A DNA stretch of 64,000 bases. Source: Candidatus Omnitrophota bacterium. Its GTDB lineage: Bacteria; Omnitrophota; Gorgyraeia; S143-82. The stretch lies in the NCBI GenBank assembly GCA_015494465.1, contig WGBD01000002.1, positions 197,267-261,266 of the forward strand. Direction: 5' to 3'. The notes under the pieces were generated by a model that saw only the letters and a program-made list of their open reading frames with translations, had not been told where the DNA came from and did no database searches. Both the position numbers and the translations under genes were made by a program. Below are positions 6,876 to 53,916 of this stretch, piece after piece (the first letter of the stretch is position 1; each line of letters opens with the position of its first letter).

Positions 6876-6885
6876 TGTCGTGTAA

Positions 6886-8577: not shown

Positions 8578-8589
8578 CTTGCATCCCGA

Positions 8590-28672: not shown

Positions 28673-30613
28673 ATGGAAGAGATATTTTCGTTTCAGTTGG
28701 ACGAATTCCAGAAGCAAGCACTCTCCGCCGTGGACGAGGGCTGTTCCCTGTTGGTCTCTGCACCCACTGGTGCGGGGAAGACGGTGATAGCGGAGTATGT
28801 GATTCATCGGTGTCTGGAGAAGGGGCTCGGGGTAATATACTGCGCACCCATAAAGGCCCTGAGCAACCAAAAGTTTCGGGACTTCCGCCAGAGGTACGGA
28901 GAGGACAAGATAGGGATACTCACCGGAGATGTCTCCCTCAATCCCGAGGCGCCGGTCCTGATAATGACCACCGAGATATTCCGCAACACCATCTTGGACT
29001 GTCCTTACCGGCTTGACTCCAAGTTCTGGGTGATATTCGACGAGATCCACTACATAGACGATGTGGAACGGGGGACGGTGTGGGAGGAGTCGATTATAAT
29101 GATGCCCAAGCACATGCGCCTCTTGGGATTGAGTGCAACCATCCCGAATGTAGAGGAACTGGGGGAGTGGATCCGCAAGATACACCCATTCCCCCTAAAG
29201 ATAATCGTGGAAGAACACCGCCCCGTCCCTTTGGAGTTCCGCTTCCAGTGCCACAACGAGATATTCACCTCGGTATCCGCACTAAAGGACCAGTGCTACC
29301 CTTGGATGGCCAACAAGCGCATCCCCCGTGCCTGGGATGTGGGGGCAAAGCCCAACAAACTGATTACCCTGATAAAACACCTGAGGGAGGAAGACCTCCT
29401 GCCCTGCATATACTTCGCCTTCAGCCGAAGGCGGTGTGAGATCCTCGCCTGGGAGGTGCGGAGGATGAACTTCCTCTCGCCCAGCGAGGCGGAAGAGATA
29501 ACCACCCGCTATTACGAATTACTGGAGCGCTTCGGGCTCATCGGAGACAAGTTCGCGGAAGACATGTACGACCTCGTGAGGCGGGGAATTGCCTTCCATC
29601 ACGCGGGCATGCTTCCGACGATGAAGGAGGTGATAGAGCAGTTGTTCACCTCCCGCCTGATAAAGGTGATATTCACCACCGAGACCTTTGCTCTGGGGAT
29701 AAACATGCCTGCCCGCACGGTGGTGTTCGACGAATTGCGGAAGTACTACGGCACCCACTTCGGCGAACTGCGCACCCGGGACTTCTACCAGATGGCGGGC
29801 AGGGCAGGGCGACGGGGGATAGACGAGAAGGGATATGTGTACTGCCGGATAAATCCCCATCACATAGACTTCTACACCCTGAAGCGCATAATATTCGGTC
29901 AGCCTGAGAAGGTAATCAGTCAGTTCAACATGTCCTACGCCTCCATCCTCCACCTCTACAAGGACCTTCAGGACCGGTTGGTAGACATATACCCGCTCTC
30001 CTTTGCCCACTTCCAGTCCAGCAAACGGGAGCACAGAGAGGACATCCGCATCATCCGGGCAAAGGTGCGCCTCCTCAAGGAACTGGGGTACATCCGAAAG
30101 AACCAGTTGACCGAAAAGGGAATCTTCGCCTCCCATGTTTACGGATACGAACTGCCCACTACCGAACTCTACTTTGCCGGCCTGTTCCGGGACCTCAACC
30201 CCAAAGAGCTCCTGGCCTTGGCCTCTGCTATCGTCTTCGAGCCCCGCAAGGGTCAACACAAACCACCCCTGCCAAAAGGGATTAAGTACCTGCAGAAACA
30301 ATCCAACCGGATCCTGCGCAGGATCATCCGCATGGAGAGGAAGTTTCAGCTCCTGCCCGTGACCAAACGCCTCCACTTCCACCTGGCCCTGGCGATAGTG
30401 CGCTGGGCCGAAGGGGAGAGCTTCGAGCGACTCAACCGCTACACCGACACCGATCCGGGCGAGATAGTGCGTTACTTCCGCATGGTAATCCAGTTGCTCA
30501 AGGACATCTGCGAGGTCCCACTCATAGATCCGAGACTGAAAGAGACCATCCACTCCGCCATAGAGAAGATAAATCGGGACGAGGTGGACGCGGAAAGGCA
30601 ACTGCGGGCCTGA
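28673..30613 (+). CDS. Ski2-like DEAD/DEAH-box helicase (HelY/Mtr4-like, short form)
   Basis: 646 aa. Motif I SAPTGAGKT, motif II FDEIHYIDD, SAT and HAGM motifs. Confidence 0.8.
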   Translation: MEEIFSFQLDEFQKQALSAVDEGCSLLVSAPTGAGKTVIAEYVIHRCLEKGLGVIYCAPIKALSNQKFRDFRQRYGEDKIGILTGDVSLNPEAPVLIMTTEIFRNTILDCPYRLDSKFWVIFDEIHYIDDVERGTVWEESIIMMPKHMRLLGLSATIPNVEELGEWIRKIHPFPLKIIVEEHRPVPLEFRFQCHNEIFTSVSALKDQCYPWMANKRIPRAWDVGAKPNKLITLIKHLREEDLLPCIYFAFSRRRCEILAWEVRRMNFLSPSEAEEITTRYYELLERFGLIGDKFAEDMYDLVRRGIAFHHAGMLPTMKEVIEQLFTSRLIKVIFTTETFALGINMPARTVVFDELRKYYGTHFGELRTRDFYQMAGRAGRRGIDEKGYVYCRINPHHIDFYTLKRIIFGQPEKVISQFNMSYASILHLYKDLQDRLVDIYPLSFAHFQSSKREHREDIRIIRAKVRLLKELGYIRKNQLTEKGIFASHVYGYELPTTELYFAGLFRDLNPKELLALASAIVFEPRKGQHKPPLPKGIKYLQKQSNRILRRIIRMERKFQLLPVTKRLHFHLALAIVRWAEGESFERLNRYTDTDPGEIVRYFRMVIQLLKDICEVPLIDPRLKETIHSAIEKINRDEVDAERQLRA

Positions 30614-32943: not shown

Positions 32944-32984
32944 GGAACCGTCCCCCTATAAATTAAAAACCCCACCATTGCCGT

Positions 32985-33099
32985 GGGGACAGGCATAGTC
33001 TGAACCCCAAAACTAGGTGGGCACCTGCCGACTACCCCACGGGGTAGCCGGACTCCGGCTCCCAGTTTCGAGGTGTTGGTTCAGCTACTTGCCTTCCCC
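32985..33099. other. GC-rich structured intergenic element (candidate small RNA or regulatory RNA), strand unknown
   Basis: 115 nt. Its ends form a long interrupted helix (GGGACAGGCATAGTCTGAACC with GGTTCAGCTACTTGCCTTCCCC). Internal hairpins TACCCCACGGGGTA and GCCGGACTCCGGC. GC-rich, unlike other intergenic regions here. Confidence 0.25.
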
Positions 33100-33168
33100 T
33101 CACGCGCATGGTAGGGACCGCTTCCAACACCAATTTAATGATAGCAGAAGGCAGGCAAAAAGGCAAGT

Positions 33169-33462
33169 TTACATCTGCAGGCGCATCAGTTCCTGATAGG
33201 CGTCTATCAACTTGTTGCGGATCTCCATCATGGTCATAAAGGCCAGGTTCGCCTCCTCCACCGCGACCAGGACCTGGTGGATGTCCTTGACCTGGCCCTT
33301 GGCGAGTTTCTCCATGGCGTTCTCTGCGTTCAGCTGGAGCTGGTTCACCTTATCTATACTCTCTTTCAGGATGGAGGCAAAGTCAACATCTCCGGAGACC
33401 TTTCCCGAGGGCTTAGGGGTCAAGGGCCCTATACCACCAACTCCAATCTTATCTATCGCCAT
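33169..33462 (-). CDS. fliE: flagellar hook-basal body complex protein FliE
   Basis: 97 aa with FliE-family C-terminal helices. SD GAGGTGA upstream. Confidence 0.8.
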   Translation of the reverse strand: MAIDKIGVGGIGPLTPKPSGKVSGDVDFASILKESIDKVNQLQLNAENAMEKLAKGQVKDIHQVLVAVEEANLAFMTMMEIRNKLIDAYQELMRLQM

Positions 33463-33468
33463 ACCTCA

Positions 33469-33867
33469 TCACCTCAACATGTCCAGCGTCCTTATGTAGT
33501 TCTGCTTCTGCAGGTTGAAGGCTGCGATGTTCGCCTCGTAGGCTCGGGAGGCGGTTATCATCTTCGTCCACTCCTCTACCAGATTTATCCTCGGATAGTG
33601 GACATAACCGTACTGGTCCGCATCGGGGTGGTCGGGATCGTACACCAGACGATAGGAATCCTGCTCCTGTATCCCGATAACCCTTACCCCCTGGGCATCG
33701 GGGGCGCTCTGGAGGATCACCTCCTGCCGTTTATAAGGCCCTCCTTCCGGGGTGCGGGTGGTGTTGATGTTGGCCAGGTTGTTGGCGTAGGTCTCTATGC
33801 GCCGTTTCTCCGCACGCAGACCACTCACCGATATCTCCATCCCGGAAAACACGCTGGAAACCTGCAT
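33469..33867 (-). CDS. flgC: flagellar basal-body rod protein FlgC
   Basis: Start at ATG 33865-33867 (MQVSSVFSGMEISVSGL...) with SD GAGGTG upstream. Conserved N-terminal rod motif ANNLANINTT. Confidence 0.85.
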   Translation of the reverse strand: MQVSSVFSGMEISVSGLRAEKRRIETYANNLANINTTRTPEGGPYKRQEVILQSAPDAQGVRVIGIQEQDSYRLVYDPDHPDADQYGYVHYPRINLVEEWTKMITASRAYEANIAAFNLQKQNYIRTLDMLR

Positions 33868-33894
33868 TATCACACCTCGTCCCGCCTAGTTATT

Positions 33895-34275
33895 CTATTC
33901 CGGCCTACCTCTTATTATACTCTCGAACAGGTCAAACCGCGACCTCAAAAGTTGGACCATGGACTGGTAATCCATGGAATCCTCGGTAATCTTCACTAAT
34001 TCTTCGTCCAACTCCACCGGCCTGCCCGTGTCCTTTATCGGAATCTTTTCCAGGCCCGGCGAAGAGATTCGTGCCGGGATGTGGCGAGGGTTGGTCCGCT
34101 CCAGCTCCAAGCGCATCTGCTCCTTCTCCAAGACCTTGGCAAAGTCCACCCGCTTAGCGGTGTATCCGGGGACATTCACATTGGCGATGTTGTTGGCCAA
34201 CACCTTGATCTCCCGGGAAAGGACCGTCATACGATCTACCACTGCGGACTCTGTCTTACCTACGAACATACCCAT
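33895..34275 (-). CDS. flgB: flagellar basal-body rod protein FlgB
   Basis: Start at ATG 34273-34275 (MGMFVGKTES...) with SD AGGAGGG 5 nt upstream. The upstream track extension is spurious. Confidence 0.8.
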   Translation of the reverse strand: MGMFVGKTESAVVDRMTVLSREIKVLANNIANVNVPGYTAKRVDFAKVLEKEQMRLELERTNPRHIPARISSPGLEKIPIKDTGRPVELDEELVKITEDSMDYQSMVQLLRSRFDLFESIIRGRPE

Positions 34276-34298: not shown

Positions 34299-34314
34299 TG
34301 CAAAATGCGTGCCA
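34299..34314 (-). promoter_or_regulatory. sigma-54 (RpoN) -24/-12 promoter for flgB-flgC-fliE
   Basis: The minus strand reads TGGCACGCATTTTGCA, a perfect match to TGGCAC-N5-TTGCA. It lies ~25 nt upstream of the flgB start. Confidence 0.6.
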
Positions 34315-34359: not shown

Positions 34360-35301
34360 ATGAAGACATCCAAAAGAGCAACCGAGATCGCCTTAGTTTT
34401 TATCCCCTTGGGTGCGTTATTCTTTTACCTCTCCTCCAAACACCTGGTCACCGCAGATGTAAACCTATACTACGACATCGGAAGGAACCTCCTATCCCTC
34501 AAACCCTACTGCAGTTTTGACATCTACGCAACCAGCCCTGAGGCCTACTTCCCTGCCCTGCCCTTCACTGCACCCCTCTGGCCATTGGTGGCTGGGATAA
34601 GCATAAGGCTCCTTGGCACCTACGGGCCGTGGATGATCAACCCACTGCTCTTGCTCGCAAGCGCCTTCGTCTTTTACCGGATAGCCCACAGATTCCTCGC
34701 CCATGAACAGGCCCTGATGGCAACCGCCTTGGCCTTTACCTCCCTGCCCATACTCCTGATTGCAATGTATCCTTGGACGGAGACCCTGGGCCTACTCCTA
34801 TTGCTGCTAATAGTCCATCAAGTCCTCTCCGGGGCCCGGCCCCTCCACACCGGCCTGTTATTGGCCTTGGAGGGTCTAACCCGACCCCACTACCTCCTGC
34901 CCGCCCTGATAATCACCGCCATTTGGAGCAAGCGAAAAAGGGACCTTTTGACCGCATTACTGACCAGTGCAGTCTTGCTTCTCACCTACGAGGGAGTGTG
35001 TCTGGTGCTTTGGAAACTGCCCTACCCCAGTATGTACCTATTGCCCCTGAACAACTTCTCGCCTCCGATTGGCAAGACAGATCTGGGGGAGGCAGTGATA
35101 GGCTACCTACACACATTAAAAGACCTCCTGCTCAACACCCCAACCCTCCCAATAGGAGTCCTTGCCCTTCTCCTCGGATTCTGGCTCAAGCAGGCCCAAG
35201 GGCTGGACGGACGGGTAGTAAAACTCCTCTGGACCTATCTGGTATTGGTCGTTACCTATCCCGTTTTATTCCTGATATTGATCCTCAAGGGGGTATGGTA
35301 G
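34360..35301 (+). CDS. polytopic integral membrane protein (~9-10 TM), possibly the N-terminal part of a GT-C/ArnT-like glycosyltransferase
   Basis: 313 aa, very hydrophobic. It ends at TAG 35299-35301, overlapping the next ATG. Confidence 0.45.
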   Translation: MKTSKRATEIALVFIPLGALFFYLSSKHLVTADVNLYYDIGRNLLSLKPYCSFDIYATSPEAYFPALPFTAPLWPLVAGISIRLLGTYGPWMINPLLLLASAFVFYRIAHRFLAHEQALMATALAFTSLPILLIAMYPWTETLGLLLLLLIVHQVLSGARPLHTGLLLALEGLTRPHYLLPALIITAIWSKRKRDLLTALLTSAVLLLTYEGVCLVLWKLPYPSMYLLPLNNFSPPIGKTDLGEAVIGYLHTLKDLLLNTPTLPIGVLALLLGFWLKQAQGLDGRVVKLLWTYLVLVVTYPVLFLILILKGVW

Positions 35302-35744
35302 TGAGGTTGCTTCCCATAGACACCATACGATTTGCCTCCCTCCACGCACCGTTCGCCATCCTCATCGCAATGGTACTCGTATCCAAGGTCCGCAACCGCC
35401 TGCTTCCCAACATACTGACGATACTCCTGTGCCTGTACTCTGCCTACTCTCTCATCGCATCCATCCTCATCTCCCAGATACTAGCCACTAAACAGAGACC
35501 CGGTTATCTCTTCGTCGAGAAGATACGCCCTTACCTCCGATCCCAAGAGGTCATTTGCAGCCAGGACATACAACTGCCCTGGTATCTGGTAGACAATCCC
35601 GTAGGAAAGGTCTCTCGGGATAGACAAGGAGAATACCTGCAGTGGAAAGGCTGTAAAGCCCTGGTCATAAGGAGGGAAAAGGGTCAGTGGGTCCTCTTGA
35701 AACCCAAGGAGTACGGGAAGGACACCAAATCATCCCCTAAGTAA
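35295..35744 (+). CDS. membrane protein (3 TM plus soluble C-terminal domain); may be a continuation of the preceding gene
   Basis: ATG at 35295 (MVVRLLPIDTIRF...). ATGGTAG overlap with the upstream gene. Different frame. Confidence 0.4.
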   Translation: MVVRLLPIDTIRFASLHAPFAILIAMVLVSKVRNRLLPNILTILLCLYSAYSLIASILISQILATKQRPGYLFVEKIRPYLRSQEVICSQDIQLPWYLVDNPVGKVSRDRQGEYLQWKGCKALVIRREKGQWVLLKPKEYGKDTKSSPK

Positions 35745-36874
35745 TCTCCCTCGCACAACACGACCGCCCGGTGGATGCAGTTCTCCAGTTCCCGCACATT
35801 GCCCGGCCAATCGTAGTCCAAAAGGACCCTCATAGCGGAGTCAGTGATGCCCTTTATCTCCTTGCCCACCTTCTTGCTATACCGACGGAGAAAGGCCTCT
35901 GCCAACAGGGGGATGTCTTCTTTCCTTTCCCGCAAGGGCGGGACATATATAGGCACCACATTCAACCTAAAGAACAGGTCTTCCCGGAACCTTCCTTCCT
36001 TCACCTCCTGGGCCAGATCCCGATTGGTGGTAGCCACCACCCTCACATCCACCTCGACAGGGGAACTTCCCCCTATCCTATCCACCTCTCCCTCCTGAAG
36101 GACCCGCAACAACTTCGCCTGCAGGTGGAGGGGCATCTCCCCTATCTCGTCCAAAAGTATCGTTCCCCCGTGGGCGAGTTCAAACTTTCCCTTGCGGGTG
36201 TAGACCGCTCCGGTAAAGGCCCCCTTCTCGTGGCCAAACAACTCCGCTTCCACGAGGGTATCGGGTATTGCCGCGCAGTTCACCCTCACATAGGGCCCAT
36301 CTGCCCGCTGGCTCAAGGCGTGGATCCTGCGGGCGATTAATTCCTTCCCCGTACCGGTCTCACCCATTATGAGGACCGTCGCATCACTGCAGGCAATCTT
36401 CTCCAACTCCCTTTTGAGGGCCCTTATAGGAGCGGACTCCCCTATGAACTCCTCCCCCACCTCCGACTGGCACCTAACCAGTTCCTTCAACCGGACATTT
36501 TCCTCTTTCAGCCTGTGGGCCTCCAGGGTCTTCTCCACCACCACCTCAAGTTCGTCGGCGGAGAAGGGCTTCATGATGTAATCGCTGGCGCCCTTCTTCA
36601 TGGCGGTCACCGCGGTGTCCACCGTTCCGTAGGCGGTAATCATTATCACCGGCAGGTTGGGGAATTTCTCCTTCACCTTCTCCAGGAACTCTATCCCCGA
36701 CATCTCGGGCATACGCATGTCGGTAATCACCAGATCGCAACCGCCCTTATCCAAAAGGGAAAGCCCCTTCTTCGGCGAATTCACCGCCCTAACCTTGTGG
36801 CCCGCCTCCTTAAGGACCATCCTCAAGGACTCCAAGACCAGATCGTCGTCGTCCACGACTAATATGGAAGCCAT
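35684..36874 (-). CDS. sigma-54-dependent response regulator lacking a C-terminal DNA-binding domain (FlgR-like)
   Basis: Start at ATG 36872-36874 ([11 protein letters not shown]), with SD GGAGGT. REC domain plus AAA+ sigma-54 activator domain ([21 protein letters not shown]). The protein ends ~25 aa after the AAA+ domain. No Fis-type HTH. Confidence 0.8.
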
Positions 36875-37686
36875 ATAACGACCTCCGCCCCTTTTTCCCA
36901 ATTCCCGAACTCCACCTCTCCCCCGTGGGCCTCCACTATCCGGCTGGTTATCGCCAGCCCCAACCCGGTCCCTTTGGTCTTAGTGGTGAAGAAGGGCTCG
37001 CACAACCTTCCCATCACCCCTTCGGGGAATCCCGGGCCGGTATCCCTTACGGATATCCCAACCCTGCCTCCCCTCACCTCGCAGGACAACCAGATCTGAC
37101 CTTTATCCCCAACCGCATCCACCGCGTTGTCCAATACATTCAACAGGGCCCTCTCCAGATAATCCGGATCCGCGGAGAACCTCACCTCCTCGTCGGAGAC
37201 GGAAAGGGTTATATCCTTGCCCTCCAAGGCAGGGACCAGAAACTTCTGCATCCTTCGGGAAAGGTTCCGCCAGGAGACCTGCACCTTGTTGAGGGATATG
37301 TCCTGGGCGAAGTTCAGGATGTCCCCTATTATCGACTCCATCCTATTAACGCCCGCCCGGATGTTCTCTATCAGCTCCCTCGCACCCGGATCTCGAACCT
37401 TCTTCTCCAACATAGATACCGACAAGGAGATCCCTGCCAGCGGATTCCTTATCTCGTGGGCAAGGGTGGCCGCCATCTCCCCGATGGCTGCAAGACGCCG
37501 GGAACGCTCCAACTGCTCGGTAAGCTCTGCGATCCTGCGCTCCAGGACCGCGTAGTACTCTATCAACTCCGCGCTGGTCTTGGAAAAGGCGTCAAAGGCC
37601 TTTATCAGCTCCTCAGGTGGGGTCTCTCTTGCCAGATCACCGCCGGCGATCGACGAATCTGGCCTCTTTACCGGTTCCCTTTCCAT
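36859..37686 (-). CDS. cytoplasmic sensor histidine kinase (FlgS/FleS-like)
   Basis: 275 aa, no TM segments. HisKA H-box LAHEIRNPLAGI. HATPase_c N/G boxes. It overlaps the regulator start by 16 nt. Confidence 0.75.
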   Translation of the reverse strand: MEREPVKRPDSSIAGGDLARETPPEELIKAFDAFSKTSAELIEYYAVLERRIAELTEQLERSRRLAAIGEMAATLAHEIRNPLAGISLSVSMLEKKVRDPGARELIENIRAGVNRMESIIGDILNFAQDISLNKVQVSWRNLSRRMQKFLVPALEGKDITLSVSDEEVRFSADPDYLERALLNVLDNAVDAVGDKGQIWLSCEVRGGRVGISVRDTGPGFPEGVMGRLCEPFFTTKTKGTGLGLAITSRIVEAHGGEVEFGNWEKGAEVVIWLPY

Positions 37687-38068
37687 AGTACGCCTTCACC
37701 GCCTTCTTGCCCGCGTTCACCTGGGAAAGGTCCGCCTCCAGACGATCCTTACTTTTCTGGACCTGTTCCACCAACACCCCTTCCAACTCCAACAGCCTCT
37801 TCACCACCGCCTCTATCTCCTCGAAAAGGGCCGCGATCCTCTCCTTTTCCTCTCTAGGGAGATCCCCCCGATTTTGCTTCCACCACATCTTCAGTTCGGC
37901 GAGCCTGTCGTCTATCGACTGTATCTTCAATACCAATTCTTGCTTTTTCTTCAGGGCAGAGAACAAAAAATCCACATCCCCGCCCCGTTCCACCTGCTGG
38001 TTGGAGATCTCCAGCATCTGCCTGTACAGGTCCAGTTCCTCCTCCAGCCCTGCTATCAGGGCCACCAC
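37637..38068 (-). CDS. small coiled-coil protein, FlgN-like/flagellar chaperone-like (tentative); start uncertain
   Basis: Candidate GTG starts at 38065/38068 or the ATG at 38017. Sequence ...LVLKIQSIDDRLAELKMWWKQ...EEKERIAALFEEIEAVVKRLLELE. It overlaps the kinase start by 50 nt. The longer track ORF overlaps the upstream TPR gene. Confidence 0.35.
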   Translation of the reverse strand: MVALIAGLEEELDLYRQMLEISNQQVERGGDVDFLFSALKKKQELVLKIQSIDDRLAELKMWWKQNRGDLPREEKERIAALFEEIEAVVKRLLELEGVLVEQVQKSKDRLEADLSQVNAGKKAVKAYYGKGTGKEARFVDRRR

Positions 38069-38076
38069 CTCTTTAT

Positions 38077-41000
38077 TCACTTCTTCAACTCCTCCAAAAG
38101 CTCCTTTGCCTGATCCAGTTTCTGCCGGATCTGGGCCTCGTTCTTCTGCCAGTGGGCCTCCTTCGCCCATATGCTATCCGGGTACTTCTCTATAACCGCG
38201 TCGAAGTAGACATTCGCCTTGCCGATGTTCCCCTGCATCTTGTAGCACATCCCTATCTGATACAGGACCCAATCCGGGACATCCTTGCCTTTGTCCTCGT
38301 ACACCTGCTTGATCTTCTTGTACATCTTCAAGGCGCTCTTAAAGGCCCCCATGCGGTAATTGGTGTCTGCCAGCTTCAGCAAGGCATTCATTATAGCATC
38401 GAAGGCCTCGGGATCCTTACCCCCTATTTTTAGAGAAATCCTGCCGCCTACATCCTTCAGATCCGCGTCGTAATAGCGGAGCAGACGGGTCAGATACTTG
38501 GCGTACAACTTGACCGCAGGACCGTAATCGCCCTTTCCCACCAAGGCATCCGCCTCGAGTCTCAACAGCTCCGTGAGGCGCTCCCAGTCCGTGGTCAAGG
38601 CCCGGGCGTTCTTGAAGGCCTCGTAGGCCTCCTCGTACTTCTCCAAGCGCATGTAGATCTTCCCCAAGGACTCCCAGGCCAAGGCCTTTAGGGCCCTGTC
38701 GCCCAGAAAGCGGTTCCTGGCTATGCGTTGGTACTGATCTATCGCCTCTTGGATCTGGCCTGCCTCTTCGTAGGTCCGTCCCAGCATGTACCTGCACTTG
38801 AACCTCCAAGGACTCAAGGGAGAACTGCGGATAGCATCTTTGAAACTCTCTATTGCCTTGGCATAATCTTGGTTATAAAAATAAGCAATGCTGAGACGGT
38901 ACATGATCTTGCCCCTGTCCAGGGCCTTGTACTTCTTGAATTCGGTAAGCACCCCAACGAAGACACCAATCGCCTTCTGATACTCGCCTGACCGCAGTAG
39001 GGCATCTGCCTTGGCGAGGTATATCTTGAGCCTCAATCTCTTCTCGTCTTTGGGGATCTTTCTCAAGAGCTTGTCGTAGACCTTCACCGCGGAGATGTAG
39101 TCCCCTCCCAACTCGTACATTCTCGCAAGGTACCAATAGGCCTTCCTTACCTCGGGGTAGTCGGGATACTTCTCTACCAGCGTCCGCAACCACCTCTGGG
39201 CATCCTTGAACCTGACTTGATGGGCCAAGGTCTGGGACAAGAGGAACAAGGCAGAGGGAAGTTTCTCCCACTTGTAAAACCTCTCCTTTAGATCGTACAA
39301 TAGGCGCTCCGCTCGCTTGAAGTCCCTCTTCTCAAAGGCAAGGAGCCTGGCAGCGTCGTAAAGGGCCTGCGCAGACAACTCGTCGTACTTAAACCTGGTC
39401 GCCAACTCGATGTAGGTATCGATTGCGGAATCGATGTCTCCTTTCAGTTCGTAGGCCTGGCCCTTCCTCAACAACAGCTCTGGCAAGAGGTCCTTGGGCA
39501 GATCCTGCTCAGCCGCGCTGTAGACCGAGATCGCCTTGTCGATCTGCCCCGACTTTATCAAGGCATCCGCATAGCGGAACAGGACCTCGGAAAGGTGGGG
39601 ATCATTCTTATAGTCCTCAATGAACAACGGGGCGGTCTCTATTATCCTATCCCAACGCTTATCCTCGGTATACCACCTAACCAATTCGTAGAGGGCCAAG
39701 GGCCGGTAGGGGCTACTGCCTTGCTCCTTAATCAACCGCCACAACTCCTTTTCAGCGGACTCCTCGTCACCGCTGTGCTTGTAGGACAGGGCCAGATAAT
39801 ACCTGGCCTCGTCTATCATGTTGGAGAACGAGAACCTCTCCAAGAACTCCTTGTAGTGCTGGATCGCGGTAGGATAGTCCCCCATTCTATAAGCACTGTG
39901 GGCGATCCGCAAGAGTGCCTTTTCCTTGTTGAGCATCCTGGGAGAGTGCTCGTAGGCAAATCGATAATACTCCATCGCCTTTGCGTACCTCTCTTCTTCC
40001 GGGAGATCTGCCCGCTTATCGAAAAAGGCATCGCCCAATACTATACTGGCATCGTCCAGGAACTTGCTATCTGGAAAGCGGGTCTTGAGTTCCTGAAATA
40101 GATCCTCCGCGGTGGCGTAGTTCTCCTTCTCCACCATCTTATACATCAGGGCAAACAGGTCCGAATCGCTGTAGCCAGCGAATTGGCGGGACTCGGTGGC
40201 CGTGGGTTCCTTCTTGGAAACGGACAAAAGCCTGACCACCCCGATAGCGATCAACAAGAAGGACAATAAGGATAAGGCAAAGATACCATAGGCCAAGAGC
40301 GGAGGGAACGCAGGCACTGCCTTGCTCTCAGATGGAGATGACTCTTGGGAGGAAACATCCTGCACGGTCTCGACCGGAACTGCGGAATCGGTTATCTCTG
40401 TAGAGGGGACATCCTGAGGGACCTCTATGTCCTTGTTGGTATCTACGACCTCTTCCTTTATCTCTACTTCGTCTATGCTTATCTTCTCTTCCGAGGACTG
40501 CTCTTTTTCAGAGGAAGCCGACGGCGCAGGGCCCTCTCCCAGCAGAAGGGCGCGTTCGTCCCCCACGCCCTCAGGGACCTCTTCGCCACCTGGAATCTCC
40601 TCCTGCGCCGTCTCTTCCTCACCCCCCTTTGTGCTACTGTCAACAGCAGCCTCTTGGTGCGGAGAACCCTGCACCTCTCCGACATCCTCAGCGGTCCCTA
40701 CCTCTTCGACCTCGCTCTTATCACCTCCTTCCTCCTTTGCCTCTTCGGTGCCTTCCGTTTCCTCTCTGCCCTCTCCGGACTCTGGTTTGGCCTCCGCCTC
40801 CCCCTCGGAGGCCTCCCCCTCTGCCTCTGAAGTCTCCTTTTCCTTATCACTCCGGCCCTCGTCTTCTAAGACCTCTTTAGGGCCTTTATCTTCCTGCTCC
40901 CCTTCGTTCTCCCGTTTCTCCTCTTGCCCTTCCTCCTCTTCTGGCGCGGGTTCCTCTCCCACCGTCTCTCCCTGCCCCGCAACCCTATCTTCTCCCTTAT

Positions 41001-41217
41001 CCCCTTTCGCCTCCTCCCTTTCCTCCTCAGGCTGGGCAGACTCCGGACCCCCTGCCTCTATCTCAACCCCCAAAAAGTCCTTTATCCCAGCCACTACTTC
41101 GGGAGTAAGTTCTATCTCGTCGTCGCCGGTCAACTCCTGTCCCACTACCACGCTGATGGCGCAGGAGAGTTCGGTCAGGTCCAGATTGTACTTCTCCGCC
41201 AGTTCCCTTAACTTCAT
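38077..41217 (-). CDS. 1046-aa membrane protein: N-terminal SAP/HeH-like segment, ~250-aa acidic low-complexity linker, one TM helix, ~700-aa TPR-repeat domain
   Basis: N-terminus MKLRELAEKYNLDLTELS. Linker E/G/K-rich. TM helix AFPPLLAYGIFALSLLSFLLIAIGVV. More than 15 TPR-like repeats. Translationally coupled (ATGA) to the upstream MerR gene. Confidence 0.6.
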   Translation of the reverse strand: MKLRELAEKYNLDLTELSCAISVVVGQELTGDDEIELTPEVVAGIKDFLGVEIEAGGPESAQPEEEREEAKGDKGEDRVAGQGETVGEEPAPEEEEGQEEKRENEGEQEDKGPKEVLEDEGRSDKEKETSEAEGEASEGEAEAKPESGEGREETEGTEEAKEEGGDKSEVEEVGTAEDVGEVQGSPHQEAAVDSSTKGGEEETAQEEIPGGEEVPEGVGDERALLLGEGPAPSASSEKEQSSEEKISIDEVEIKEEVVDTNKDIEVPQDVPSTEITDSAVPVETVQDVSSQESSPSESKAVPAFPPLLAYGIFALSLLSFLLIAIGVVRLLSVSKKEPTATESRQFAGYSDSDLFALMYKMVEKENYATAEDLFQELKTRFPDSKFLDDASIVLGDAFFDKRADLPEEERYAKAMEYYRFAYEHSPRMLNKEKALLRIAHSAYRMGDYPTAIQHYKEFLERFSFSNMIDEARYYLALSYKHSGDEESAEKELWRLIKEQGSSPYRPLALYELVRWYTEDKRWDRIIETAPLFIEDYKNDPHLSEVLFRYADALIKSGQIDKAISVYSAAEQDLPKDLLPELLLRKGQAYELKGDIDSAIDTYIELATRFKYDELSAQALYDAARLLAFEKRDFKRAERLLYDLKERFYKWEKLPSALFLLSQTLAHQVRFKDAQRWLRTLVEKYPDYPEVRKAYWYLARMYELGGDYISAVKVYDKLLRKIPKDEKRLRLKIYLAKADALLRSGEYQKAIGVFVGVLTEFKKYKALDRGKIMYRLSIAYFYNQDYAKAIESFKDAIRSSPLSPWRFKCRYMLGRTYEEAGQIQEAIDQYQRIARNRFLGDRALKALAWESLGKIYMRLEKYEEAYEAFKNARALTTDWERLTELLRLEADALVGKGDYGPAVKLYAKYLTRLLRYYDADLKDVGGRISLKIGGKDPEAFDAIMNALLKLADTNYRMGAFKSALKMYKKIKQVYEDKGKDVPDWVLYQIGMCYKMQGNIGKANVYFDAVIEKYPDSIWAKEAHWQKNEAQIRQKLDQAKELLEELKK

Positions 41218-41546
41218 TGCCCATCGCTCGCTTCACCCTTTTTCCGCTCGCTGTCGAACTCCTGCTCCAAGATGTCCCGTATCTGCAACAGACTGTACCC
41301 TTGTGCCTTCAACTCCTTTATCCGCTTCAGGCGGGGGAAGACATCCTCCCCGTAAAGCCTGTGCCCCGAGGGGGTGCGAGAGTGCTCTTTTATCAACCCT
41401 AACTGAGTGTAGTTGTGGAGGATCTGACGAGAAAGCCCGGTGTAGTACATCACCTCGCCGATCTTGTAGAGCTTGGGAGGGATGAGCACATCGTCCGGAG
41501 ATCCCGGTGGTTGGTTTTGCAAGTTATCTTTTTCGTTATTCAACAT
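41214..41546 (-). CDS. MerR-family transcriptional regulator
   Basis: ATG at 41544-41546 (MLNNEKD...). The track start at 41564 is a TTG. HTH KLYKIGEVMYYTGLSRQILHNYTQLGLI. The stop overlaps the start of the next gene. Confidence 0.7.
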   Translation of the reverse strand: MLNNEKDNLQNQPPGSPDDVLIPPKLYKIGEVMYYTGLSRQILHNYTQLGLIKEHSRTPSGHRLYGEDVFPRLKRIKELKAQGYSLLQIRDILEQEFDSERKKGEASDGQ

Positions 41547-41581
41547 AAACTTTGCCTTTGGCAAATTGCTATGTGAATAAT

Positions 41582-41605
41582 GACATGTACATTATACCTC
41601 ATGTC
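41582..41605. promoter_or_regulatory. inverted repeat GACATG-N12-CATGTC spanning a TATAAT -10 box on the minus strand; candidate MerR promoter/operator
   Basis: Read directly. The minus-strand TATAAT is at 41591-41596. A second palindrome TTTGCCtttGGCAAA sits at 41551-41565, abutting the MerR start. Confidence 0.35.
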
Positions 41606-41740
41606 TTTTTTGTATTGTATCAGAAAAATTGTCTAATACCAAAAATTTTTTCTCTTTTACGATATACATTTTATGAATTGTAAAAATAAAGCGCAAAGGC
41701 TAGTGAGGCAACTTAAAAGGCTGGAATTGGCCTGTACTAG

Positions 41741-42421
41741 CTACCTTCTCCTGCGCCGGAAAGAGAAGAGGACGGGAAGGGCGAGCCCCAACAGGGACAG
41801 CGAAGCGGGTTCGGGGACGATCCCTTGCAGGCCCCCTTCACCCTTTTTGGCGAGGATCCAGGCGGAGGTATAGGGGTCGCTCACCGCGTCGTCCGCAATA
41901 TAGCCCTTCTTTCCTCCGTAGGTATACACATTCCCCGACATGGTAGAATAAGAGGTGATCCTGTATATGTACCGCCTAGTACTCGGCCCAGTCCCTGAGG
42001 CCACATCAGCGATCCTGCCTATCCAGTACCTGTAATAGGTCATACCCGAGAGCTTGTCCCTAGTGTAGGGGAATACCGACCAATCCTCGTCTATCACTGG
42101 GACGAGGGTAGCGACCTCATCTTCCCTCGCTAGGCGCCACGATCCGTACCCTGAAAAGTCGTACCCGCTTACCGCCATCTCACTTGCAGGGACTATGGCA
42201 TCCAAGATAGACTGGATGTCAAACAGCGTCTTCTGGGTAAAGAGGCCCAGATTCCGCAACCACACCACCTCGTTGGTGTCGTCGTAGACCACGCTTAGCT
42301 GTCTTCCGTTATAGATAAGGTTGGAGGGCGTTAAGATGGCTATCGAGGCATAACCTGTTAGCACCACCCCACTGAGCAACCAGACTGCCACACCCACGGA
42401 GGAAAGCACCAACCTCTTCAT
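41741..42421 (-). CDS. PEP-CTERM sorting-domain protein (exosortase substrate)
   Basis: 226 aa with a signal peptide. C-terminus VPEPASLSLLGLALPVLFSFRRRRR, i.e. PEP motif, TM helix and Arg cluster. Confidence 0.65.
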   Translation of the reverse strand: MKRLVLSSVGVAVWLLSGVVLTGYASIAILTPSNLIYNGRQLSVVYDDTNEVVWLRNLGLFTQKTLFDIQSILDAIVPASEMAVSGYDFSGYGSWRLAREDEVATLVPVIDEDWSVFPYTRDKLSGMTYYRYWIGRIADVASGTGPSTRRYIYRITSYSTMSGNVYTYGGKKGYIADDAVSDPYTSAWILAKKGEGGLQGIVPEPASLSLLGLALPVLFSFRRRRR

Positions 42422-48808: not shown

Positions 48809-49285
48809 TCACGCCCTCAGGTTATACACCCTCCCAAAGGTCCTCTCCTTCTTCCCCGTACAGCTGTAGCCTACGAAATCGAGCGAGGCAAACATCCCTA
48901 TCAGCTCTTCAACATAACACAACACGGTCCTCACGGTGTAACGCATCAGCCTGCTTTGGAGACGGATGTCTTCCAATACCTCCTTTAAGCGATCCTGCAG
49001 GTGTCTAAGGCCATTCCTTTCCTCGGGAGGGGCCATCCGTATCAGGTCTGACAACCTATCCGATCCTGCCAGACCAACACCTTTTCCCAATCGCCTACAG
49101 ATCTGCACTCTCTCTGCCTCCAGTTCCCGCAACCTCTCCTGTATCTTGGCCTGCATGCCGACAGTTTTCTCCAAACTATCCACATCCCTCTTAACCAAGG
49201 CCTCTTTGACCTTGCCGAGGGTCTCCCCAAACTCCTTGTATAGGCTCAATTGCTGGGTCAGTATTCGCTTTAGTTCCTTCCACAT
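48809..49285 (-). CDS. flgN: FlgN-like flagellar export chaperone
   Basis: 158 aa, helical. Immediately upstream of flgK, the classic position. Confidence 0.5.
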   Translation of the reverse strand: MWKELKRILTQQLSLYKEFGETLGKVKEALVKRDVDSLEKTVGMQAKIQERLRELEAERVQICRRLGKGVGLAGSDRLSDLIRMAPPEERNGLRHLQDRLKEVLEDIRLQSRLMRYTVRTVLCYVEELIGMFASLDFVGYSCTGKKERTFGRVYNLRA

Positions 49286-53900: not shown

Positions 53901-53916
53901 TGCAAATACCGTGCCA
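53901..53916 (-). promoter_or_regulatory. sigma-54 (RpoN) -24/-12 promoter for the flgF-G-A-H-I...csrA operon
   Basis: The minus strand reads TGGCACGGTATTTGCA, a match to TGGCAC-N5-TTGCA. It lies ~25 nt upstream of the flgF ATG. Confidence 0.6.

What the first reader, a model, noticed from the sequence alone, without database searches (positions are those of the whole stretch)
38077..41546. MerR regulator translationally coupled to a 1046-aa protein with SAP/HeH-like N-terminus, 250-aa polyacidic linker, single TM and giant TPR domain, directly upstream of flgS/flgR
The MerR stop and the large gene start overlap as ATGA. The large protein has a short cytoplasmic N-terminus resembling a SAP/HeH nucleic-acid-binding motif (MKLRELAEKYNLDLTELS). 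A ~250-residue E/G/K-rich acidic region follows, then one TM helix and more than 15 periplasmic TPR repeats. It lies in one co-directional string of MerR, TPR protein, coiled-coil protein, kinase and sigma-54 activator. By analogy with TPR scaffold proteins of epsilonproteobacterial flagellar motors (PflA/PflB), it could be a flagellar or envelope scaffold, or a membrane-tethered signalling protein. That analogy is an inference. The domain combination is unusual.
Basis: inference. Interest (0 to 1): 0.55.

Follow-up and report, generated by a model that had tools for sequence, protein, structure and literature searches.

The report
Omnitrophota flagellar-operon membrane TPR protein
A giant single-pass membrane protein, found only in a few uncultured Omnitrophota bacteria, always sits in one five-gene operon with a mini-MerR regulator and a flagellar-type two-component system; it probably couples the cell envelope to flagellar gene control, but its function is untested.

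Summary
A 110-aa MerR-like gene overlaps (ATGA) a 1046-aa gene. That gene encodes a folded 50-aa N-terminal domain, a 254-aa polyacidic disordered linker, one TM helix and about 17 TPR repeats. Next come a weakly FlgN-like gene, a kinase with no sensor domain and a sigma-54 activator with no DNA-binding domain.

This five-gene module is intact in every ortholog locus I could read (37-90% identity), all from Candidatus Omnitrophota. It lies next to flagellar genes, usually just before a sigma-54 promoter and flgB-flgC-fliE(-fliFGHIJ).

The SAP/HeH reading is not supported. The N-domain has no Pfam or PDB sequence match and no relative outside this family among 1.84 billion representative proteins. 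It is strongly acidic (pI about 4.2). Its only fold resemblance is weak, to the IF2 N-domain and small HTH domains.

The PflA/PflB analogy is generic: the TPR part matches any long TPR solenoid equally well.

The MerR is a DNA-binding-domain-only "mini-MerR" from a family of more than 2000 proteins. Elsewhere in Omnitrophota it is coupled to secreted TPR proteins and a FliA/WhiG sigma factor.

Best guess (about 0.4): a transmembrane coupling or co-sensor protein for the flagellar master-regulatory operon. A structural motor scaffold remains a serious rival.

The parts
41614..41642 (-). sigma-70-like promoter candidate (TTGGTA-17 nt-TACAAT, TG-extended) in the AT-rich region upstream of the module
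   Evidence: Consensus scan. Sequence read. Function not shown.
41214..41546 (-). mini-MerR: 110-aa MerR-type winged-HTH (helices a1-a4) with no a5 coiled coil and no effector domain
   Evidence: Pfam MerR_1 8e-12. PDB profile hits to MerR, MtaN, TipAN and GlnR cover only the DNA-binding domain. Ortholog alignment A3 ends just after a4. The same 110-aa product is called in public assemblies.
38077..41217 (-). 1046-aa bitopic TPR protein (whole gene, stop included)
   Evidence: ORF. Ten full-length orthologs. AF2 model.
41062..41217 (-). N-domain, residues 1-52: beta-alpha-alpha-beta-alpha mini-domain, acidic (pI 4.1), specific to this family
40300..41061 (-). polyacidic disordered linker, residues 53-306
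   Evidence: 33% D+E, net charge -63. pLDDT about 26. Length and sequence vary between orthologs.
40522..40680 (-). cluster of conserved short motifs inside the linker (GSPHQE ... GG..VPEGVGDERxxLLG), residues about 180-232
   Evidence: Invariant or near-invariant in all 11 orthologs down to 37% identity. Short predicted helix at 221-225.
40222..40299 (-). single transmembrane helix, residues about 307-332
   Evidence: Hydropathy 2.3-3.0 in all orthologs, with no second candidate. Helix 306-332 in the model.
38080..40167 (-). TPR solenoid, residues 351-1046: 34 helices plus one beta-hairpin, made of YbgF/BamD-type repeats
   Evidence: Pfam TPR_2/12/14/6 E 1e-35 to 1e-41. NCBIfam tol_pal_ybgF, 8 stretches, 3.5e-48. 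pLDDT above 90.
37637..38080 (-). 147-aa coiled-coil protein, weakly FlgN/FliT-like, GTGA-coupled to the TPR gene; conserved C-terminus GKKAVKAYY..EARFVDRRQ
   Evidence: Pfam FlgN 32.0 bits against a cut-off of 30.5. Alignment A4. Family of only about 10 proteins. Not similar to the canonical flgN at 48809-49285.
36859..37686 (-). 275-aa soluble histidine kinase (HisKA + HATPase_c) with no sensor domain and no TM segment
   Evidence: Pfam domains begin at residue 69. NCBIfam Campylobacter FlgS model 88 bits, far below its cut-off of 600.
35684..36874 (-). 396-aa sigma-54 activator: REC + AAA+ + lid, with no C-terminal HTH
   Evidence: Pfam. No HTH_8 in any ortholog. Start taken from the public gene call.
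34299..34314 (-). sigma-54 promoter element TGGCACGCATTTTGCA directly upstream of flgB
   Evidence: The equivalent element lies upstream of flgB in L001, L002, L003, L015 and L019, and upstream of fliE in L007.
33169..34275 (-). flgB (33895-34275), flgC (33469-33867) and fliE (33169-33462), the likely target operon
   Evidence: Pfam Flg_bb_rod and FliE on the identical contig L015. Coordinates mapped from L015 to the window.

Best explanation
The 1046-aa protein is a bitopic inner-membrane protein specific to one lineage. I propose it acts as the transmembrane coupling or co-sensor component of a five-gene flagellar master-regulatory operon: mini-MerR, TPR protein, FlgN-like protein, sensor-less FlgS-like kinase and FlgR-like sigma-54 activator without a DNA-binding domain.

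Proposed mechanism:
- The roughly 700-aa TPR solenoid sits in the periplasm. It acts as a binding platform for an envelope or flagellar-assembly cue.
- On the cytoplasmic side, a 250-300-aa polyacidic flexible tether carries an acidic folded N-domain and several invariant short motifs. These bind one or more of the co-encoded cytoplasmic regulators: the basic mini-MerR DNA-binding domain, the FlgN-like protein or the kinase.
- Regulator availability or kinase activity would then depend on what the TPR part is bound to.
- The phosphorylated activator turns on the sigma-54 promoter immediately downstream (flgB-flgC-fliE, and fliFGHIJ in most relatives).

Shown: the anatomy, the strict conservation of the five-gene unit, the sigma-54 promoters, and the absence of a sensor domain in the kinase and of a DNA-binding domain in the activator.

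Inferred: the topology, every protein-protein contact, and the direction of signalling.
For: 1. The five genes are overlapping or contiguous. The unit is intact in all readable ortholog loci, which span 37-90% identity: L001, L002, L003, L007, L008, L009/L010, L013 and L019. Genes downstream of the unit differ. flgB-fliE-fliF... follow in the window, L001, L002, L003, L013 and L019; unrelated genes follow in L007-L009.

2. The kinase has only about 65 residues before HisKA and no TM or PAS domain, so it needs an external input. The activator lacks an HTH, like H. pylori FlgR (PMC3930126).

3. A sigma-54 element TGGYAY-N5-TTGCW lies directly after the activator gene and before flgB in 6 loci. 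In L001, L013 and L019 (Pfam-annotated) and L003 (by ORF sizes), fliF, fliG and fliHIJ follow in the same string. The system is therefore probably at the top of the hierarchy and cannot be triggered by MS-ring assembly as in C. jejuni (PMC3760246).

4. The cytoplasmic part is under selection as an interaction device:
- The N-domain is 49-70% identical across orthologs and has 16 invariant residues.
- It is duplicated in L013, at 66% identity between the copies.
- Invariant motifs GSPHQE and PEGxGDERxxLLG sit in an otherwise free-drifting linker.

5. Charges are complementary: N-domain pI about 4.2 and linker net charge -19 to -77, against a mini-MerR core pI of 9.4-9.8.

6. Evidence for N-in/C-out topology:
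- There is no signal peptide.
- A folded domain and 300-480 residues precede the TM helix.
- The TPRs are of the YbgF/BamD type.
- The small TPR proteins coupled to mini-MerR elsewhere carry signal peptides or lipoboxes.
Against: - No interaction has been tested, and I had no structure-prediction jobs left for complexes.
- The positive-inside rule is ambiguous, and in 6 of 8 orthologs it slightly favours the opposite topology.
- Flagellar operons often mix structural and regulatory genes, so operon membership does not prove a regulatory role.
- A very large, highly conserved TPR solenoid is more typical of a structural scaffold than of a sensor.
- All relatives belong to one phylum and share wider synteny (NMO, hydrolase and HAD genes upstream), so part of the conserved gene order may simply reflect relatedness.
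- The kinase and activator are far below the NCBIfam FlgS/FlgR cut-offs.
Confidence: 0.4

Rival explanations
1. It is a structural periplasmic scaffold of the flagellar motor, working like PflB/PflA or the spirochaete collar proteins. The TM-anchored TPR solenoid would form a ring or spokes around the rod and stators. The gene would sit in the early operon simply so that it is made early.
For: [quoted passage not shown]
- Foldseek rank 3 is the C. jejuni periplasmic scaffold chain 9hmf_K (E 1e-13).
- Its repeats are YbgF-type, the origin proposed for PflA/B in PMC12222027.
- It is embedded between the flgH-I-J-N-K-L and flgB-C-fliE clusters.
- The TPR part is the best-conserved region.
Against: - The structural similarity is generic: TM about 0.2, 13% identity, ranked among eukaryotic Ctr9, IFT-A and Ski3.
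- No Pfl chain is among the 60 best sequence-profile hits.
- PflB has no counterpart to the 300-aa conserved cytoplasmic module with a folded domain and invariant motifs.
- The gene is locked to four regulators rather than to stator or ring genes in all loci.
Confidence: 0.27
2. It is a polar landmark or positioning protein that works like HubP/FimV. A membrane protein with a huge acidic cytoplasmic region would mark the site of flagellum assembly and recruit regulators there.
For: - It has a polyacidic, low-complexity cytoplasmic region of 250-330 aa next to a TM helix. From my own knowledge, this is the hallmark of HubP/FimV.
- It has conserved short motifs suited to recruiting clients.
- It is co-expressed with the earliest flagellar regulators.
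Against: - It has no LysM or FimV C-terminal motif (Pfam).
- Its orientation is opposite: the acidic region is N-terminal to the TM helix, and the large folded domain is on the other side.
- No flhF or flhG was seen in the parts of the window I annotated (short ORFs and a few others were not scanned).
Confidence: 0.12
3. The topology is inverted: the TPR solenoid is cytoplasmic and anchored like LapB, serving as a chaperone or assembly platform for the co-encoded cytoplasmic proteins. The acidic N-tail would be exported.
For: - The flank after the TM helix is more positive than the flank before it in 6 of 8 orthologs.
- The profile hits LapB, a TM-anchored cytoplasmic TPR protein, at about 1e-5, and weakly hits T3SS TPR chaperones SctY, LcrH and SscB.
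- All four operon partners are cytoplasmic.
Against: - The N-terminal region of 300-480 residues has one or two stably folded domains and no signal peptide. It is far beyond known N-tail translocation, about 100 aa for ProW (my own knowledge).
- The small TPR partners of mini-MerR in other Omnitrophota are clearly secreted or lipoproteins.
Confidence: 0.1
4. It is a membrane-tethered transcription factor: the N-domain binds DNA, as a SAP/HeH or HTH domain would, in the manner of ToxR/CadC.
For: - It is a three-helix mini-domain.
- Weak fold hits include the pSK1 Par DNA-binding domain and several HTH proteins.
- The long linker could reach the nucleoid.
Against: - Net charge is -7 to -9 and pI about 4.2 in all orthologs.
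- There is no SAP, HeH, LEM, HTH or MerR profile match, and hhalign against the adjacent MerR gives probability 0.2%.
Confidence: 0.03

Closest known systems
PflB / PflA periplasmic TPR scaffold of Campylobacter/Helicobacter flagellar motors (PMC12222027, PMC12054838)
   Same: - Long TPR solenoid of about 16-17 repeats, presumed periplasmic.
- PflB-like N-terminal membrane anchor and an isolated beta-hairpin.
- Encoded among flagellar genes.
- YbgF-type repeats.
   Different: - No specific sequence or structural relationship beyond generic TPR.
- This protein has a 300-aa conserved cytoplasmic module that PflB lacks.
- It is locked in an operon with regulators, not found as a stand-alone structural gene.
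FlgS/FlgR two-component system and its assembly checkpoint in C. jejuni/H. pylori (PMC3760246, PMC7064773, PMC3930126)
   Same: - Soluble kinase paired with a sigma-54 activator.
- The activator lacks a DNA-binding domain, like H. pylori FlgR.
- A sigma-54 promoter precedes the rod genes.
   Different: - Scores are far below the FlgS/FlgR equivalog cut-offs.
- Here fliF/fliG appear to lie behind the sigma-54 promoter, so the MS ring cannot be the trigger.
- Three extra obligatory partners (mini-MerR, TPR protein, FlgN-like protein) have no counterpart in Campylobacterota.
Single-pass anti-sigma factors and accessory co-sensors of sensor-less kinases; FliX-FlbD of Caulobacter (PMC3930126)
   Same: - Small N-terminal cytoplasmic binding domain, one TM helix and a large periplasmic domain.
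- The gene is translationally coupled to the regulator it would control.
- As with FliX, a trans-acting factor would link assembly or envelope state to a sigma-54 activator.
   Different: - The partner is a MerR-type DNA-binding domain and/or a kinase, not an ECF sigma factor.
- The N-domain is unrelated to anti-sigma domains.
- The 250-aa polyacidic tether has no counterpart.
- No binding has been shown.
BldC, the 68-aa MerR-like DNA-binding-domain-only regulator of Streptomyces (PMC5859096)
   Same: The upstream gene has the same architecture: a MerR winged-HTH without the coiled-coil dimerisation helix and without an effector domain.
   Different: - BldC is not among the 12 PDB profile hits listed.
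- The protein belongs to a separate family of more than 2000 proteins, named mostly from Omnitrophota and Planctomycetota.
- DNA binding to direct repeats is untested.
IF2 N-terminal domain followed by a charged flexible linker (PDB 4b3x, 9a4o)
   Same: - Small N-terminal domain of about 50 aa followed by a long, highly charged disordered linker. The beta-alpha-alpha-beta-alpha layout is from the model; that IF2's N-domain has a similar layout and linker is my own recollection.
   Different: - No sequence-profile match.
- Scores are below significance.
- The context is entirely different.
- The tool did not report which part of IF2 was aligned.
HubP / FimV polar organisers (own knowledge)
   Same: Bitopic membrane protein with a very long acidic low-complexity cytoplasmic region, linked to polar flagellar biology.
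   Different: - No LysM domain and no FimV C-terminal motif.
- Reversed domain order.
- A TPR solenoid lies on the far side of the membrane.

Membership tests
PflA/PflB flagellar scaffold | Detectable sequence homology to PflA or PflB | tested here: not met
   A profile of 10 orthologs against all PDB sequences gave 67 hits. The best 60 are consensus TPRs, LGN/Pins, CpoB, BamD, LapB, OGT and Ctr9, with no 9hmf chain among them.
PflA/PflB flagellar scaffold | Specific structural match to the motor scaffold, above generic TPR proteins | tested here: not met
   9hmf_K is at rank 3 and 9hmf_L at rank 47, but with TM about 0.2 and 13-14% identity, interleaved with eukaryotic Ctr9, IFT-A and Ski3.
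PflA/PflB flagellar scaffold | Location in the motor's proximal disk; paralysed-flagellum phenotype | not testable with these tools
   Requires cryo-ET and genetics in an uncultured phylum.
SAP / HeH / LEM nucleic-acid-binding motif | Profile match to SAP/HeH families | tested here: not met
   Pfam at E up to 10 on 6 orthologs gave no SAP, HeH, LEM or Rho_N hit. The PDB profile gave nothing relevant.
SAP / HeH / LEM nucleic-acid-binding motif | Helix-extended-helix fold with a basic DNA-binding surface | tested here: not met
IF2_N domain (PF04760) | Sequence-profile match | tested here: not met
   No IF2_N hit in Pfam at E up to 10. No IF2 hit in the PDB profile search.
IF2_N domain (PF04760) | Fold similarity to the IF2 N-domain | tested here: inconclusive
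MerR family (upstream gene) | MerR-type winged HTH (helices a1-a4) | tested here: met
   Pfam MerR_1 45.5 bits against a cut-off of 21.6. PDB hits 4ua1, MtaN and TipAN at 1e-9 to 1e-7.
MerR family (upstream gene) | a5 coiled-coil dimerisation helix and C-terminal effector-binding region | tested here: not met
   The protein ends about 15 residues after a4 in all 7 orthologs. Family relatives are 76-90 aa. The architecture is BldC-like (PMC5859096).
FlgS/FlgR (Campylobacterota fla regulon TCS) | NCBIfam equivalog scores | tested here: not met
   FlgS model 88 bits against a cut-off of 600. FlgR model 349 bits against 750.
FlgS/FlgR (Campylobacterota fla regulon TCS) | Soluble kinase; REC-AAA+ activator that works without a DNA-binding domain; sigma-54 promoters on rod genes | tested here: met
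   No TM or sensor domain in the kinase and no HTH in the activator. TGGCAC-N5-TTGCA lies before flgB and flgF. This is a functional analogy only.
FlgN export chaperone (third gene) | Pfam FlgN match above the gathering score | tested here: inconclusive
   The window protein scores 32.0 bits against a cut-off of 30.5. Orthologs are 'weak' or have no hit. There is no similarity to the genome's canonical flgN and no PDB hit.
Single-pass anti-sigma-like / co-sensor architecture | Cytoplasmic N-terminal binding domain, one TM helix, large extracytoplasmic domain, gene coupled to its regulator | tested here: met
   This is architecture only, and the topology is inferred.
Single-pass anti-sigma-like / co-sensor architecture | Physical binding to and control of the partner regulator | not testable with these tools
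Binding assays or complex prediction are needed.
HubP/FimV polar organisers | Periplasmic LysM domain and C-terminal FimV motif | tested here: not met
   No LysM or FimV family among the Pfam hits.

The most novel reading that the evidence does not exclude
The module would be a new kind of transmembrane switch with sigma/anti-sigma logic, built from different parts. A membrane-anchored polyacidic tether carries an orphan acidic domain. Acting as a DNA mimic, it sequesters a dimerisation-less mini-MerR DNA-binding domain. It also serves as the missing sensor for a sensor-less FlgS-like kinase. A periplasmic TPR platform would release or activate both in response to an envelope cue, and so decide whether an Omnitrophota cell builds a flagellum at all.
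Probability: 0.12. Interest if true: 0.7.

Novelty: new variant of a known kind. Interest (0 to 1): 0.45.

Why it matters
- Flagellar regulation in Omnitrophota is essentially undescribed. The main phylum survey does not mention flagella at all (PMC10066038).
- How sensor-less FlgS-type kinases receive their signal is still open, even in Campylobacter.
- This locus gives a compact, conserved candidate set of input proteins for such a kinase, in a system where the kinase seems to sit above fliF rather than below it.
- It defines an orphan 50-aa domain.
- It reveals a large mini-MerR family that is repeatedly coupled to secreted TPR proteins and alternative-sigma regulators.
- If the coupling idea is right, it would be a new way to wire envelope state to sigma-54 transcription. 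If the scaffold idea is right, it would be an independently evolved periplasmic motor scaffold in the PVC group.

Tried and rejected
- SAP/HeH, IF2_N, Rho_N or HTH by sequence: Pfam at E up to 10 and a PDB profile found nothing.
- N-domain as a degenerate copy of the adjacent MerR HTH (my own idea, from eyeballing the sequences): hhalign probability 0.2%. Rejected.
- Other architectures carrying the N-domain: a profile search of 1.84e9 representatives found only this family plus three repeat or low-complexity false positives, P0009, P0011 and P0012.
- AFDB fold search for the N-domain: the library was unavailable.
- Exact look-up of the window protein: not on record. The 100%-identical FlgN-like protein P0017 traced the locus to a 559-kb NCBI contig, but only a 6.7-kb Logan copy was returned.
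- A conserved operator upstream of the MerR gene: the region is AT-rich, with 14-nt AAATGTAAAA-type tandem repeats in several loci but no clear shared palindrome. Left unresolved.
- Riboswitch or sRNA in the leader: none found.
- Tandem DNA repeats generating the acidic linker: none of note.
- The metagenome and genome scans added only a few loci, because the family is rare.

Full report
**1. What is in the sequence**

All relevant genes are on the minus strand.

- **Promoter.** An AT-rich intergenic region (41547-41740) holds a sigma-70-like promoter candidate, TTGGTA-17-TACAAT, at 41642-41614.
- **MerR-like gene (41546-41214, 110 aa).** It ends GGG CAA TGA. The ATG of the next gene overlaps this as ATGA.
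- **Large gene (41217-38077, 1046 aa).** Its TGA overlaps a GTG start (GTGA) of a 147-aa gene (38080-37637).
- **Kinase and activator.** The 147-aa gene overlaps the kinase gene (37686-36859) by 50 nt. The kinase gene in turn overlaps the activator gene (36874-35684).
- **How special is the overlap?** Four-base overlaps are common in this genome (ORF list). The overlap alone only indicates one operon.

**2. Anatomy of the large protein**

- **N-domain.** AlphaFold2 on an 8-sequence alignment gives residues 1-50 at pLDDT about 80. Modelled alone, the domain reaches 91.5, with a beta-alpha-alpha-beta-alpha layout.
- **Linker.** Residues 56-306 are disordered. The linker is 254 aa, 33% D+E, with net charge -63.
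- **TM helix.** There is one helix at 306-332, and hydropathy shows no second candidate.
- **TPR part.** Residues 351-1045 form a solenoid of 34 helices with one beta-hairpin (918-931), at pLDDT above 90. Pfam TPR families reach E=4e-41. The best NCBIfam model is the YbgF/CpoB TPR module (8 stretches, 3.5e-48), followed by BamD.

**3. The family is small and confined to one phylum**

- The word-indexed search of 5.8 billion proteins found 7 full-length relatives at 47-90% identity.
- The genome scan names them as Candidatus Omnitrophota MAGs.
- The exhaustive profile search and the metagenome scan added orthologs at 40% (P0008/L019) and 37% identity (P0010 and L013).
- None of these proteins carries a name in any source.

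**4. What is conserved across orthologs**

- The N-domain has 16 invariant positions.
- The TM helix is conserved.
- The TPR part is conserved, especially its C-terminal half.
- Inside an otherwise free-drifting acidic linker lies a set of invariant short motifs: GSPHQE, GG..VPEGxGDERxxLLG, KE.VV and V.VET.E.
- In L013 the N-domain occurs twice (residues 1-53 and about 175-228), at 66% identity between copies. It is therefore an autonomous module and not a signal peptide.

**5. The N-domain is not SAP/HeH**

- Pfam at E up to 10 on six orthologs gives no SAP, HeH, LEM, Rho_N, IF2_N or MerR hit. A PDB sequence profile gives nothing meaningful.
- hhalign against the neighbouring MerR gives probability 0.2%.
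- A profile search of 1.84 billion representative proteins finds the domain only in this family.
- Foldseek gives no E below 0.45. IF2 (9a4o) has the best TM score, 0.59.
- The domain is strongly acidic in every ortholog: net charge -7 to -9, pI 4.05-4.31. This argues against nucleic-acid binding and for protein binding.
- An IF2-N-like fold on a charged flexible linker is the best lead, but it is not established.

**6. The PflA/PflB analogy is generic**

- Foldseek ranks the C. jejuni scaffold chain 9hmf_K third. It has TM about 0.2 and 13% identity, and it sits between eukaryotic Ctr9, IFT-A and Ski3.
- The sequence profile retrieves designed consensus TPRs, LGN, CpoB, BamD and LapB, with no Pfl chain among the best 60.
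- Some shared traits with PflB remain noteworthy but are not diagnostic: the membrane anchor, an isolated beta-hairpin and YbgF-type repeats (PMC12222027).

**7. The partners**

- **MerR-like protein.**
  - It is a genuine MerR winged HTH.
  - It stops about 15 residues after helix a4, so it has no dimerisation coiled coil and no effector domain. This is the architecture of BldC (PMC5859096).
  - It belongs to a family of more than 2000 proteins. The 120 listed are mostly 76-90 aa, and the named ones come from Omnitrophota and Planctomycetota.
  - Its core is basic, pI 9.4-9.8.
- **147-aa protein.**
  - It only marginally matches FlgN (32.0 bits against a cut-off of 30.5).
  - It is unrelated to the canonical flgN at 48809-49285.
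  - Its family is as rare as the TPR family.
  - It has a conserved C-terminal KAYY...EARFVDRRQ.
- **Kinase.** It has only about 65 residues before HisKA and no TM or PAS domain.
- **Activator.** It is REC-AAA+-lid with no HTH in any ortholog, like H. pylori FlgR (PMC3930126).
- **FlgS/FlgR membership.** Both kinase and activator score far below the NCBIfam FlgS/FlgR cut-offs. 'flgS/flgR' is therefore a functional label, not a statement of membership.

**8. Context**

- The five-gene unit is intact in every locus I could read: L001, L002, L003, L007, L008, L009/L010, L013 and L019.
- Downstream, flgB-flgC-fliE (then fliF-fliG-fliH-fliI-fliJ in L001, L003, L013 and L019) follow in most loci. 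L007-L009 have unrelated genes there. The five-gene unit, not the wider neighbourhood, is the conserved entity.
- Upstream, the cluster flgH-I-J-N-K-L-fliW-csrA is conserved in L007-L009. In the window it is inferred from ORF sizes and gene order, with Pfam run only on flgA.
- A sigma-54 element TGGYAY-N5-TTGCW lies directly before flgB in the window (34299-34314) and in L001, L002, L003, L015 and L019. It lies before fliE in L007 and before flgF in the window.
- The MS-ring and C-ring genes appear to lie behind that promoter. The two-component system is therefore probably at the top of the hierarchy. This differs from C. jejuni, where FliF, FliG and the T3SS trigger FlgS (PMC3760246). This step is an inference: internal promoters are not excluded.

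**9. An unexpected parallel**

In four other Omnitrophota assemblies a mini-MerR of 80-89 aa sits between two other genes, overlapping or within a few dozen bases of each (L017/L018, L024, L025, L026).

- It is 65-69% identical to the window protein over the aligned two-thirds.
- The upstream gene encodes a small TPR protein with a signal peptide or lipobox.
- The downstream gene encodes a sigma factor. The L017 copy is FliA/WhiG-type (TIGR02479, 278.9 bits against a cut-off of 189.6). The others have only Pfam Sigma70 domains.
- L013 also has a TPR lipoprotein just upstream of its MerR.
- 'Secreted TPR protein + mini-MerR + alternative-sigma regulator' is thus a recurring theme. It also supports a periplasmic location for the TPR part here.

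**10. Topology**

- **For N-in/C-out:** there is no signal peptide; 300-480 residues with one or two folded domains precede the TM helix; the repeats are YbgF/BamD-type; and the analogous small TPR proteins are secreted.
- **Against:** the positive-inside rule is ambiguous, and 6 of 8 orthologs have the more positive flank after the TM helix.
- I put N-in at about 0.8-0.9.

**11. Interpretation**

- **Best-supported mechanism (confidence about 0.4).**
  - The protein is a transmembrane coupling or co-sensor protein.
  - A periplasmic TPR platform reads an envelope or assembly cue.
  - A cytoplasmic acidic tether, with its N-domain and motifs, binds the co-encoded regulators.
  - This sets the output of a sensor-less kinase and a sigma-54 activator lacking a DNA-binding domain onto the adjacent flgB promoter.
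- **Rivals.** These are a PflB-like structural scaffold (about 0.27), a HubP-like polar organiser (about 0.12), an inverted topology with a cytoplasmic LapB-like TPR platform (about 0.1), and a DNA-binding tethered factor (about 0.03).
- **Status.** None of the contacts has been tested.

**12. Verdict**

- The family is a new, phylum-restricted variant that combines known kinds of parts: a TPR solenoid, an acidic tether, a mini-MerR and a FlgSR-like system.
- Interest is moderate. It is a clean, testable candidate for how a sensor-less flagellar kinase gets its input. But it rests on comparative genomics in uncultured organisms.

Noticed in passing
L017 6333-8061; L024 4333-6059; L025 4326-6040; L026 4167-6040: A conserved trio occurs in other Omnitrophota: a secreted or lipoprotein TPR protein (213-275 aa), a mini-MerR (80-89 aa) overlapping or nearly abutting it, and a sigma factor (257-273 aa). 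The L017 sigma factor scores as FliA/WhiG (TIGR02479, 278.9 bits against a cut-off of 189.6). The same mini-MerR family is therefore linked to an alternative sigma factor elsewhere.
   Followed up: partly
L013 2102-5695 (Ga0256914_1003230): The 37%-identity ortholog (1197 aa) carries two copies of the N-domain (residues 1-53 and about 175-228, 66% identical). It also has a 275-aa TPR lipoprotein gene immediately upstream of its MerR gene.
   Followed up: yes
window 34299-34314 (-) and 53901-53916 (-): Two near-perfect sigma-54 promoter elements, TGGCACGCATTTTGCA upstream of flgB and TGGCACGGTATTTGCA upstream of the gene I take to be flgF. Equivalent elements occur in L001, L002, L003, L007, L015 and L019.
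   Followed up: yes
window 32965-33120 (-): A 6S RNA (Rfam RF00013, 55.3 bits against a gathering score of 46.4) lies just downstream of fliE.
   Followed up: no
window 34360-35301 (+) and about 35301-35744 (+): A divergent pair of genes with no Pfam match is inserted between the activator gene and flgB: a 313-aa hydrophobic, probably multi-pass membrane protein and a protein of about 147 aa. The same insertion is present in L007, L008 and L015 but absent in L001, L003, L013 and L019.
   Followed up: no
window 41741-42421 (-): A 226-aa protein with an N-terminal signal-like segment and a C-terminal PEP-CTERM sorting signal (TIGR02595, 25.6 bits against a cut-off of 16) lies directly upstream of the module. 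Relatives have an unrelated UPF0259 gene on the opposite strand at this position.
   Followed up: no
window 41650-41700; L007 9521-9548; L008 9488-9517; L001 9526-9595: The AT-rich region upstream of the MerR gene contains 14-nt tandem units of the type AAATGTAAAAnAnA in several loci. These could be an operator for the dimerisation-less MerR, by analogy with BldC binding to direct repeats. No clear shared palindrome was found.
   Followed up: partly
L025 8992-10270+, L026 8791-10270+, L001 1-7471: Giant ORFs (products of 5136, 6263 and at least 2631 aa) lie near the mini-MerR or module loci. This fits the giant genes reported for Omnitrophota (PMC10066038).
   Followed up: no
window 10969-12492 (-), 29519-30601 (-), 62275-63990 (-): Three sizeable ORFs (507, 360 and 571 aa) have no Pfam match at E up to 1e-4 or 1e-5. 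The first lies next to a secretin/T2SSE/T2SSF (type II secretion or type IV pilus) cluster at 5649-10026.
   Followed up: no
L016 5207-7001; L021 337-2618: Other members of the mini-MerR family lie next to a REC-GAF-HD-GYP protein (L016) or an AAA_22 ATPase plus an HD-domain protein (L021-L023). The family is not exclusively flagellar.
   Followed up: no
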